Origin: Rhynchobatus australiae
Taxonomy: Eukaryota
Direction of reading: 5' to 3'
Assembly (NCBI GenBank): GCA_034780895.1
Contig: JAUZTB010000098.1
Location: 80,671,639-80,735,638, forward strand
Length of the DNA stretch: 64,000 nt
Shown: piece after piece, positions 45,001 to 64,000 of the stretch
Position numbering within the stretch: position 1 is the first letter of the stretch
How the letters are laid out: each line of letters starts with the position of its first letter
Made by a program: the position numbers

Positions 45001-48000
45001 NNNNNNNNNNNNNNNNNNNNNNNNNNNNNNNNNNNNNNNNNNNNNNNNNNNNNNNNNNNNNNNNNNNNNNNNNNNNNNNNNNNNNNNNNNNNNNNNNNNN
45101 NNNNNNNNNNNNNNNNNNNNNNNNNNNNNNNNNNNNNNNNNNNNNNNNNNNNNNNNNNNNNNNNNNNNNNNNNNNNNNNNNNNNNNNNNNNNNNNNNNNN
45201 NNNNNNNNNNNNNNNNNNNNNNNNNNNNNNNNNNNNNNNNNNNNNNNNNNNNNNNNNNNNNNNNNNNNNNNNNNNNNNNNNNNNNNNNNNNNNNNNNNNN
45301 NNNNNNNNNNNNNNNNNNNNNNNNNNNNNNNNNNNNNNNNNNNNNNNTCTAGCCGATATTTATTCCATTACAAACATAACAAATAAATTGTCAAAACTTC
45401 ACTGTCACCGAATTACAATACAGTTTCACTTCATAAACATTTTATTGGTCATGAAATGTCTTGAGACATCCAGAGATTATAAAAGACTAAATAAATACAA
45501 GTCCTCTTCTTTACGAAGAGCCATCCATTTTTGTTGCACAGAAGCTCTTACCTGATCGATTTCCATCAACTTGGGGAAGGCTCCCGGCCATTCAATGGCC
45601 ACCTTCACAATGTCCGATGGTGGTGGCATCTTAATGACTTATACACTCACTGAAGAAAACAGAAGAAGTTGCCTCGGTGTGCAAGTGACCCGAGTCTCAC
45701 CCAATCCTAAAACAGACACAAAAGTGAACAGTGTTGGAAAGAGATGAAACCTTTGCCTAGATAAATTCATTGAACCCGAGGTGCATTCACAGTGCCCTGT
45801 AACCATAATTACCAGGTAATAATATGGAGGGCTAATCCCATGTGCGTGTAACATCTTGGTCTCCAAAAGCATTGACCGAGCAGCAGCAGGGACTCCAGAG
45901 AATAAGGGAGCCCCATATCCAAATCCCTCCAAAAGCTAACAGCTGCCAAAGCTCTGTACCAAGATTTATTGACTGTAACACCTGCACAAGGTTTAATAGT
46001 TTTTAGAATGTCACTGACATTGAGACTTAAACCTGTCCTAAGTGATTGTTAAAAAGAAATCAAAACATATTTAAAATAGGTTGATCTGAAATAATTCCTG
46101 TGCAACTTACCTTCCACATTGCCTCTGCTCTACAAACTCCATTGGAATTAGCAAGGTCACAGATCCTGCACCAGGCTTAACCTGAAGCAATATTTCAGAG
46201 GCAGTTCCCCAGAGTGTTTGGGGGGAAATCTTAGCAGGACTGAGGTCTGCTGCTGGATTCCATGGGGAACCCAACAGCAGAGCACACTATCAAATGGAGT
46301 GTTCCACATCTGGCATTACATCCAGAATTTACTGCCACTTAAACAACTAAATGTTCCAAGCTCTATTCAGAATTGCCCGGCACAGGACAGTGACTTTGGT
46401 CTGCTGTGTTACTGACTGCAGTAAGATTCAACAATGCCCAAGGGAGCACCAAGTAGTGCTGGCCATTGGCACTTCTTGCATAGGACCATGGTTTGCATTT
46501 CAGTAGGTTGTTTGACAACAATGAAAATTCATTAACATTAGTATCTTTAATATCCAATGTTTTTCACAGCATGTGACAAGTATAAATCTCTGGTGCTCCC
46601 ACCTCTCTCCCCTTCAAGTCTTTATAAAGCCCATCTCTTTAACTAATTCTTTTGTCTGATTACATTTCTTGAAGCACCTTGAGACTTCTACTATGTTATT
46701 TGCAAAGGCTGCAAATAAACAAGATTTCATATTTGAAGAATTGGTTCTAGACCGGCTTAACACATATAACCACTTAGTTGCTAAATCCCACTGAGACAGC
46801 CAATTGGCACACCAGCACCAGAACTAGAAACTGGTGAACAAGCAATTCAAAAAGCAGAACTAAAAACTGGAAACTAGTAACAGAGATATTTAAAATTGTG
46901 AATTACTCCTAGTATGGATGGTAGGAGACTCGGGGAGAGTTGATGTGCATACAAGAGAGAACAGGTTTCAGGGAAACAAACAGGGGATCGATGGGATTGC
47001 TTTGATTGCCAGTNNNNNNNNNNNNNNNNNNNNNNNNNNNNNNNNNNNNNNNNNNNNNNNNNNNNNNNNNNNNNNNNNNNNNNNNNNNNNNNNNNNNNNN
47101 NNNNNNNNNNNNNNNNNNNNNNNNNNNNNNNNNNNNNNNNNNNNNNNNNNNNNNNNNNNNNNNNNNNNTAGTGACAAATCCAGATATTTAGTTTCTTAGG
47201 TAACATGAGGTTAACTGGACATTTCCACTATGTACTTCTTTATAAATATCTGAAATGATTGCTGAATAGATGTTATTCTAACAACTCTGAGATTTCCATT
47301 AGTTGCAAACATCAGGAGGTTTAGAACATTCATTCTTTTAATTGTTACATATTAAAAGTATGTGCACAAATACTTGCATAATATAAATGCGAAAAAAGCT
47401 TTGATTGATTCTTACTGATAAACCAGTGTTGTATTTTTTTTAATGTCGATGTGATTTAACCAGTCAAAAATCTACTTCAAGACCAGACATTAAGTCATGT
47501 GCCTCTTCATTCTGAAACTTTTGCTGTGATAGAACTCAATGTTGCAACACCACCCACTCAATTATTACAGTATAGACCAGATCACCATCCAAACAACTCC
47601 AAATGTCAAACTTCTTGCCACCCCCAGGCAGTGATGTGCAGGGGAGGCTGCATGCAACTTCTCTCCCTTCTGCAGGAATAAGCAGATATCACCAAAAATG
47701 CTCTTTAGGTAAAAGAGAAAAAAAAATACTCAAGGAATGTTGAATCTTACATCAGATTTTCAGACAAAAGGCATTTCTAATGGAGAACAGGGGCATTTGG
47801 GAACAGGGGTTGCAAGCTGATGCAGACTAAGGGAATCCTTGATTATCAATAGGCTGGTCCAACTACCCTTCCATACTTCACTCCAGGGCTACAAGAACCT
47901 TCTTCACTTTACCAGCTCCCCCATGCTCTACCACTGACCACCTGCATTTCCTGTGCAACCATCTTTTGTTTCTCTACTTTTTCCATTATCATTTTACCTT

Positions 48001-63000: not shown

Positions 63001-64000
63001 ATTGAGAGTCATTGTGCTCCATACCTGCAAGAAGGCTTGGTAAAGAAAGGTCTTTTGTAAACCTCTTCTGTTACATGGATGTCCTCTTCACAGCAGATAG
63101 AAATGGCTCGAGGCTCATCCTTGAAGTGTTCTATGTCATTATAGACATAATTGATATTTTCATTCAGTTGGGCAAAGCTGTAAAGCTGAAAATTGAAAGA
63201 ATATATAAACTTATTTGCTAACAAAAAGTGACTGGTGTGATATTCACAAAGTACAAGGTTTTGGGAGAGAGCTCCTGATATTTGGGCCTGGTTAGGTGAA
63301 AACATGGTCAACAATGGCGATGTCAAGGAATTGAGTTTTGGCAAGAGCTCAGGACTAGAAAAGTTGATCAATTCCTTCAAATCCAAAGCAGTGGAGTGGC
63401 ATGGTGGCACAAGTAGCACCTCCAGCTCCAGCAACTCCGGTTCAATCCTGACCTCTGGTTCTGTCTGTGCAGAATTCCGACAATTTTCCTGTGACTATGT
63501 GTGTTGCCACCAGGTGCTCCAGTTTCTTCCCACATCCCAAAGATGTGCAAGTTGTTAAGTTAGTTGGCTACTGTAAATAGCCCCTGGTGTATATGTGAGT
63601 GGTAGAATCTTGGAGGGGCAGGGTAGTTGATGGAAATTTGGAGAGAATAAAATGGGATTAGGAAAGGATTGAAAGAGTTTGCTGGTTGGGGACCAGAATG
63701 CTACCATCTTGAGATGTACAACTCACATATGAAGTGGAAACATTGTCTTTAAGGTGGTAGACACATATCACTGTCTTTGCCCTCTCCATGCAAGCCTCTA
63801 CCAATGCCATTTTTCAATTGTGTCCAACAAAGAACCAAACTGGACCTTTCCTCTAATCCAATAGGAAAAGAAATAATCACCTGCAGCCCACTTATTACTC
63901 TCCCATTGTAGAATGTCAAGGTCAGAAACACAACAGATGGGGAGAAAAGTTTAATGCCCATCTTTCAACAATCCCAAGACATGAATCATTGTCCCATGCA

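What the first reader, a model, noticed from the sequence alone, without database searches (positions are those of the whole stretch)
45630..63185. Orphan paladin exon 17 kb upstream of an ELMO gene on the same strand, with the rest of paladin missing
Seen: a 161-nt exon with an open frame, canonical AG/GT sites and strong paladin similarity at 63025-63185. Known: in PALD1 this segment lies in the N-terminal half, followed by YHRLPLP..., the SC-x5-R phosphatase-like loop and more than ten further exons. Seen: reading by eye, I found none of those exons between 63025 and the ELMO ATG, or in the ELMO introns. I also found no CpG-island promoter between the two genes. Inference, in four alternatives: (a) a 3'-truncated or pseudogenising paladin paralog; (b) ELMO nested on the same strand inside a very large paladin intron; (c) paladin exons co-opted as the 5' leader of ELMO, i.e. 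a read-through or fusion unit (the exon ends in phase 2, compatible with ELMO exon 40843-40915 but hitting a stop if joined to the first coding exon); (d) a scaffold misjoin at an intervening 100-N gap, e.g. 62602-62701 next to a SINE.
[Added by the scan's program, not by the reader: the finding's places include an assembly gap (unread letters, written N; its length is only estimated) at 47014 to 47168, 51668 to 51767, 53339 to 53350, 54849 to 54938, 57167 to 57266, 58686 to 58785. Whether the letters on both sides are continuous or in frame is not known: test that first.]
Basis: partly seen in the sequence, partly recalled or inferred. Interest (0 to 1): 0.72.

Follow-up and report, generated by a model that had tools for sequence, protein, structure and literature searches.

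The report
Lone paladin exon beside ELMO1: likely misjoin
A single, intact exon of the paladin phosphatase gene sits upstream of the ELMO1 gene in a fragmented ray genome draft, most likely because two unrelated pieces were joined during assembly and not because of unusual biology.

Summary
Window 63025-63185 (minus strand) is a 161-nt open exon with AG/GT borders. It is 94% identical to residues 308-360 of stingray (Hypanus sabinus) paladin-like protein. No other paladin exon lies in the read letters of the 64 kb, on either strand. The same methods recovered nine collinear ELMO1 exons, aa 1-262.

The ELMO gene is ELMO1.

- The exon shows no decay: 0 of 53 residues are private among 13 elasmobranch sequences.
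- It lies on its own assembly piece (62702 to beyond 64000). That piece is tied to the ELMO1 side only by a 100-N gap with no end overlap, next to a contig that breaks off inside a SINE.
- In 4 of 4 elasmobranchs and 5 of 5 bony fishes with chromosome-scale records for both genes, paladin and ELMO1 sit on records of different length.

A recent duplicated paladin fragment cannot be excluded. Nesting and fusion have no support. Interest is low.

The parts
63025..63185 (-). Paladin (PALD1 ortholog) exon, 161 nt. Starts in phase 0 and ends with 2 spare bases. Equals residues 211-263 of ray paladin.
   Evidence: AG/GT borders, open frame; E 8e-25, 94% to Hypanus; the only paladin match in the window; 0 private residues.
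62702..64000 (.). Assembly piece that carries the exon. It runs off the window end. No earlier paladin exon in its 815 nt upstream of the exon.
62602..62701 (.). 100-N join with no end overlap. Most likely place of a misjoin.
   Evidence: no overlap; no repeat bridges it.
62427..62601 (.). SINE copy at the end of the neighbouring contig, cut by the gap about 40 nt before the family's end.
   Evidence: aligned with copies at 11283-11438, 7362-7501 and 63439-63593.
63439..63593 (.). Second copy of the same SINE family, in the intron upstream of the paladin exon, in the opposite orientation.
57167..57266 (.). Second 100-N join with no end overlap. Alternative place of a misjoin.
51668..51767 (.). 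100-N gap whose flanks repeat each other exactly for 20 nt: continuous.
58686..58785 (.). 100-N gap whose flanks repeat each other exactly for 30 nt: continuous.
45552..45649 (-). ELMO1 ATG exon. Putative acceptor AG at 45651-45650, 20-nt leader with an in-frame TAA, ATG at 45629, aa 1-26, donor after 45552.
   Evidence: sequence; 100% identity over 26 aa to three elasmobranch ELMO1 proteins.
10066..42260 (-). Eight further ELMO1 coding exons in order (aa 27-262), at about 42260-42183, 40915-40843, 36953-36861, 35346-35176, 28738-28649 (weak), 20241-20140, 15123-14965 and 10146-10066. The gene runs on past the window start.

Best explanation
The exon is an ordinary, intact exon of this ray's single paladin (PALD1) gene. 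Its position upstream of ELMO1 is most likely an artefact of a fragmented short-read draft.

Proposed mechanism (inferred). The assembler broke a contig inside a dispersed SINE at 62601. A scaffolder then tied the next piece (62702 onward, carrying the paladin exon) to it across a gap of unknown length written as 100 N. The rest of paladin would then lie on another scaffold or on unplaced contigs. The real ELMO1 5' intron, leader exons and promoter would continue elsewhere.

Shown: the exon's identity and integrity, the absence of all other paladin exons from the read letters, the unsupported join, and the lack of linkage in other species.

Inferred: that the join itself is wrong.
For: 1. The exon is true paladin under constraint. 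It is 94% identical to Hypanus. It shares Ser-3 only with Hypanus and Mobula. 0 of 53 residues are private among 13 elasmobranch sequences, where the others have 0-5. Frame and splice sites are intact.
2. There is one paladin ortholog per elasmobranch: the tree of 17 paladins follows the species tree, with the ray clade at 100.
3. Only this exon is present, while the ELMO1 control recovered 9 exons.
4. The sized gaps total 263 N and two 100-N gaps are closed by exact overlaps. About 1.8 kb of missing coding sequence could therefore hide only at 57167 or 62602, the two joins without overlap.
5. The contig left of 62602 ends inside a SINE.
6. Record lengths for paladin versus ELMO1: Heptranchias 27.6 vs 172.4 Mb; Carcharodon 39.7 vs 233.3; Cetorhinus 31.5 vs 211.6; Rhinoraja 22.9 vs 116.5; Conger 89.9 vs 61.5/53.9; Scleropages 21.8 vs 22.8; Paramormyrops 24.1 vs 25.5; Polyodon 44.7 vs 97.7; Albula glossodonta 14.5 vs 42.3. 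They differ in 9 of 9.
Against: Nothing in the window shows directly that the join is wrong.

The scaffold is otherwise sound. Nine ELMO1 exons are collinear across the 11 gaps that lie between them, three of them 100-N gaps and two of those three without overlap. The scaffolder's error rate is therefore not high.

If 100 N marks joins with an estimated distance near zero (4 of 9 such gaps in the window are exact overlaps), read pairs may well support 62602 too.

The closest relatives could not be checked. Their paladin sits on records of about 70 Mb, and Narcine's on 255 Mb, against 23-40 Mb in sharks, skate and sawfish. The paladin chromosome may therefore have been rearranged in some rays.

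GC content and CpG do not set the exon's piece apart.

Record length is only a proxy for chromosome identity. In teleosts and paddlefish, unlisted paralogs could lie elsewhere.
Confidence: 0.5

Rival explanations
1. A recent DNA-level duplication copied a piece of the paladin gene (at least this exon with its intron flanks) into the 5' region of ELMO1. The copy is a non-functional gene fragment, and the intact paladin gene lies elsewhere.
For: Only one exon is present. The intron flanks and splice sites are kept, so it is not a processed copy. The scaffold is otherwise collinear. Paladin is on another chromosome in other species, as expected for a parent gene elsewhere.
Against: No sign of neutral decay: 0 private residues of 53, an open frame and intact AG/GT. 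The copy would have to be young. No duplication border or target-site repeat is visible in the 1.3 kb on hand. A young duplicate would tend to collapse in a short-read assembly, which leads back to a misplaced contig.
Confidence: 0.22
2. The adjacency is real. In this ray lineage the whole paladin gene was moved next to ELMO1, and its remaining exons lie in the unsized joins (57167, 62602) or in unplaced contigs that belong there.
For: Two joins of unknown length lie between the exon and ELMO1. The paladin-bearing record differs greatly in size among rays, so rearrangements happened. The exon looks functional.
Against: Some 600 residues of paladin are missing downstream, and by its exon sizes they would need many exons. 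With introns they would have to fit into joins that, where testable, are overlaps of zero length (4 of 9). The ELMO1 ATG exon is internal and no promoter-like CpG island lies in the window, so paladin would sit inside an ELMO1 intron. There is no linkage in 9 of 9 other species.
Confidence: 0.1
3. ELMO1 is nested on the same strand inside a very large paladin intron.
For: Same strand. The exon lies upstream of ELMO1.
Against: No paladin exon lies anywhere in the 63 kb downstream. ELMO1 continues beyond the window, and I recall the human gene as hundreds of kb long. The genes are on different chromosomes in 9 of 9 species.
Confidence: 0.03
4. Paladin 5' exons serve as a leader or fusion partner of ELMO1.
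For: Same strand. The ELMO1 ATG exon needs an upstream exon. The donor phase fits ELMO1 exon 40915-40843, which any exon pair does one time in three.
Against: Read by eye, the paladin frame meets a stop within seven codons of the ATG exon. 0 of 120 listed paladin hits carry ELMO domains, and 0 of 120 listed ELMO1 hits carry PF14566. A ray fusion at about 94% identity would have ranked at the top of the list.
Confidence: 0.03

Closest known systems
Paladin (PALD1), a phosphatase-like protein with two C-x5-R loops
   Same: The exon equals residues 211-263 of ray paladin: 94% identical to Hypanus and 92% to Mobula. It is followed in relatives by RYHRLPL and the first C-x5-R loop.
   Different: Only about 6% of the protein is present. 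Neither catalytic loop nor any other exon is in the window.
ELMO1 (engulfment and cell motility protein 1)
   Same: Nine collinear exons for aa 1-262, 100% identical over the first exon and 98% over the 57-aa exon to shark ELMO1.
   Different: Nothing unusual. The gene continues beyond the window start, and its 5' leader exons and promoter are not identified.
Scaffolding misjoins at dispersed repeats in short-read draft assemblies
   Same: Contig end inside a SINE, a join of unknown length without overlap, and a conflict with gene order in relatives.
   Different: No read-level evidence is on hand. The other joins of this scaffold pass the collinearity test.
Unprocessed pseudogene fragments from segmental duplication
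   Same: A lone exon with its intron flanks, away from the expected chromosome.
   Different: No disabling or private change. A second copy has not been shown.

Membership tests
Paladin (PALD1) gene | Significant sequence similarity to paladin orthologs | tested here: met
   320 hits, best ray 94% identity, E 8e-25; profile E 4e-33.
Paladin (PALD1) gene | Pfam PTP-like phytase domain (PF14566) at the curated cut-off | tested here: inconclusive
   12.6 bits against a cut-off of 27. The exon covers only 50 of 158 profile positions. The full-length relatives carry the domain.
Paladin (PALD1) gene | C-x5-R loops and a full-length coding sequence of about 866 aa | tested here: not met
   The loops start at residues 311 and 672 in ray paladins. 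Nothing beyond aa 211-263 is in the window.
ELMO1 | Collinear exons matching ELMO1 more closely than other proteins | tested here: met
   among the 120 listed hits, every row that carries a gene name is ELMO1, top identity 98%; nine exons in order.
Same-strand nested gene | Host-gene exons on both sides of the inner gene | tested here: not met
   No paladin exon below 63025 in the window. The far side of ELMO1 lies outside the window.
Read-through or fusion transcription unit | Transcripts or protein models joining both genes | tested here: not met
   0 of 240 listed proteins combine paladin and ELMO domains. No RNA data were available.
Decaying pseudogene fragment | Frame disruption, lost splice sites or excess private substitutions | tested here: not met
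Decaying pseudogene fragment | An intact parent copy elsewhere in the same genome | not testable with these tools
   No collection holding this genome or other ray genomes as DNA was available.
Scaffold misjoin | Join without sequence support at a repeat, and a conflict with gene order in relatives | tested here: met
   (9 of 9 species on different records).
Scaffold misjoin | Lack of spanning reads or contact signal across the join | not testable with these tools
   No reads available.

The most novel reading that the evidence does not exclude
In this ray lineage a real rearrangement broke paladin after the exon for aa 211-263. It set the gene's 5' part head-to-tail in front of the ELMO1 ATG exon. 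The result would be a truncated paladin that lacks both phosphatase-like loops, or a paladin-driven alternative leader for ELMO1.
Probability: 0.07. Interest if true: 0.45.

Novelty: not a real feature. Interest (0 to 1): 0.1.

Why it matters
If the join is wrong, the finding matters only as a quality flag. Gene models for paladin and for the ELMO1 5' end in this assembly will be broken, and synteny calls across this scaffold would be false. If the adjacency were real, it would be a lineage-specific gene break or gene-fragment duplication. That is of modest interest for the evolution of ray genomes and opens no new mechanism.

Tried and rejected
- the 26-aa ELMO exon was too short for the protein search. 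A 57-aa ELMO exon was sent instead.
- ten long ORFs between ELMO1 and the exon had no Pfam family at E<=0.1 apart from one chance-level match.
- no tRNA and no Rfam family in 45000-64000.
- GC and CpG per assembly piece do not set the exon's piece apart.
- no repeat copy elsewhere in the window bridges gaps 47014, 52661, 53339, 54849, 57167 or 62602. The sequence-based test supports continuity only where the ends overlap.
- 2 papers hold both PALD1 and ELMO1. Judged from titles and the start of the abstracts only, both look like gene-list studies. I found no paper on a genomic link in this one search.
Each exon was searched on its own, and the phase and stop statement was read by eye.
- dN/dS could not be computed because no ortholog DNA was available.
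- No DNA collection of eukaryotic genomes was on hand.
- The window is not human: its best matches are ray and shark proteins.

Full report
**What is there.** The window is a heavily gapped draft: 23 runs of N, 9 of them exactly 100 N. It is not human; its best protein matches are rays and sharks.

On the minus strand, 63025-63185 is a 161-nt exon. A pyrimidine tract plus AG precedes it and GTATGG follows it. Frame 0 is open for 53 codons, with two bases left over. A search of longer proteins gave 320 hits at E<=0.001 among 321 candidates. Among the 120 listed, the rows that carry a gene name are called paladin or paladin-like; the others are 'hypothetical', 'uncharacterized' or unnamed. The best ray hits are Hypanus sabinus at 94%, Mobula hypostoma at 92%, Narcine at 91% and Pristis at 90%.

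In ray paladins the segment is residues 211-263 of about 866. It is followed by RYHRLPL, and the first C-x5-R loop comes some 55 residues later.

**Is the rest of paladin absent?** Yes, from every read letter.
- tblastn with eight paladins gave one strong hit each (E 1e-23 to 6e-29). The next best E was 0.22.
- A profile of 11 elasmobranch paladins against all six-frame segments of the window gave one hit (E 4e-33). The next was 5.5.
- As a control, the same methods recovered nine ELMO1 exons, including pieces of 12 to 27 residues.

**The ELMO gene.** It is ELMO1. The 57-aa exon at 35176-35346 is 98% identical to Heptranchias ELMO1, and among the 120 listed hits every row that carries a gene name is ELMO1. 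Exons for aa 1-262 lie in order on the minus strand from 45629 to 10066, and the gene runs on past the window start.

The ATG exon is internal. A strong pyrimidine tract and AG lie 20 nt before the ATG, and a TAA lies in frame four codons upstream. No CpG island lies anywhere in the window. The ELMO1 promoter and leader exons are therefore not identified and may lie beyond 64000. From memory, not from a call, human ELMO1 has very long 5' introns.

**The gaps, tested first.** Of the eight gaps between the ELMO1 ATG and the exon:
- 51668-51767 and 58686-58785 have flanks that repeat each other exactly for 20 and 30 nt, so nothing is missing there.
- 47014, 52661, 53339 and 54849 are sized gaps that total 263 N.
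- 57167-57266 and 62602-62701 are 100-N joins with no overlap, and no repeat bridges them.

The missing 600 residues need about 1.8 kb of coding sequence plus introns. They could hide only in those last two joins. The contig left of 62602 stops inside a SINE, about 40 nt short of the family's end. Another copy of the same SINE lies in the intron upstream of the exon. The name of the SINE family was not tested.

**Is the exon decaying?** No. A tree of 17 full-length paladins follows the species tree. It has one elasmobranch clade and one ray clade (both 100) and pairs Hypanus with Mobula (100). 'Paladin' and 'paladin-like' are therefore one ortholog.

In the 53-residue segment the window shares Ser-3 only with Hypanus and Mobula. 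It has 0 residues not seen in another of 12 elasmobranch sequences, while those others have 0 to 5 private residues each. The exon is either part of the working gene or a very young copy.

**Is the adjacency expected?** No. The protein search reports the length of the record that encodes each hit. Paladin and ELMO1 lie on records of different length in:
- four elasmobranchs: Heptranchias, Carcharodon, Cetorhinus and Rhinoraja (paladin on 23-40 Mb, ELMO1 on 117-233 Mb);
- five bony fishes: Conger, Scleropages, Paramormyrops, Polyodon and Albula glossodonta.

That is 9 of 9 species where both genes are listed on chromosome-scale records. Left out were Mustelus (paladin on a 41-kb contig) and the two Acipenser species (fragmentary records).

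The closest relatives, Hypanus and Mobula, could not be checked. Their paladin records are about 70 Mb and Narcine's is 255 Mb, so some rearrangement of that chromosome in rays is possible.

**Reading.** The simplest account is that a contig carrying a normal paladin exon was tied to the ELMO1 5' region by a scaffolder across a SINE-bounded join of unknown length.

Against it, the scaffold is otherwise sound. Nine ELMO1 exons are collinear across the 11 gaps that lie between them. Three of those are 100-N gaps, and two of the three have no overlap.

The rivals:
- A young duplicated paladin fragment inserted near ELMO1 fits the lone exon equally well (0.22). It can be told apart only by copy number in the whole assembly.
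- A real relocation of the whole gene, with its other exons hidden in the two joins, is less likely (0.1).
- Nesting has no positive support (0.03).
- Fusion has none either (0.03). 0 of 240 listed proteins combine the two domain sets. Read by eye, the paladin frame meets a stop within seven codons of the ELMO1 ATG exon. The fit to exon 40915-40843 is the one-in-three chance of matching phases.

**Known context.** Paladin is described as a PI(4,5)P2 phosphatase that regulates endosomal VEGFR2 signalling (PMC7857541; I saw only the search listing and the start of the abstract). One search for papers holding both PALD1 and ELMO1 found two, which from titles and abstract starts look like gene-list studies.

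**Verdict.** The arrangement is most likely not a real feature of the genome. Interest is low.

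Noticed in passing
window 10521-10620, 34836-34935, 51668-51767, 58686-58785: Four of the nine 100-N gaps have flanks that repeat each other exactly for 20-30 nt at offset 0. These 'gaps' are contig overlaps that were never merged, and the sequence is duplicated on both sides.
   Followed up: yes
window 7362-7501, 11283-11438, 43907-43987, 62427-62601, 63439-63593: At least five copies of one SINE family, 69-75% alike. Two of them lie next to assembly gaps (11570 and 62602), which suggests the assembler tends to break at this repeat. The family name was not tested.
   Followed up: partly
window 28649-28759, minus strand: The ELMO1 exon for about aa 138-150 is found only weakly (E 0.02-0.035). 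It may be a short or divergent exon, and its borders were not set.
   Followed up: no
window 60533-60883, plus strand: A 116-aa open frame between ELMO1 and the paladin exon that looks by eye like the tail of a retroelement protein. It has no Pfam match.
   Followed up: partly
protein P0002 (Hypanus sabinus paladin-like isoform X2) and P0001 (Acipenser sinensis): The Hypanus model carries a 97-residue N-terminal extension compared with the 866-aa ray paladins. The Acipenser model contains this exon's segment twice (residues 232-283 and 383-434), probably a model or assembly artefact.
   Followed up: no
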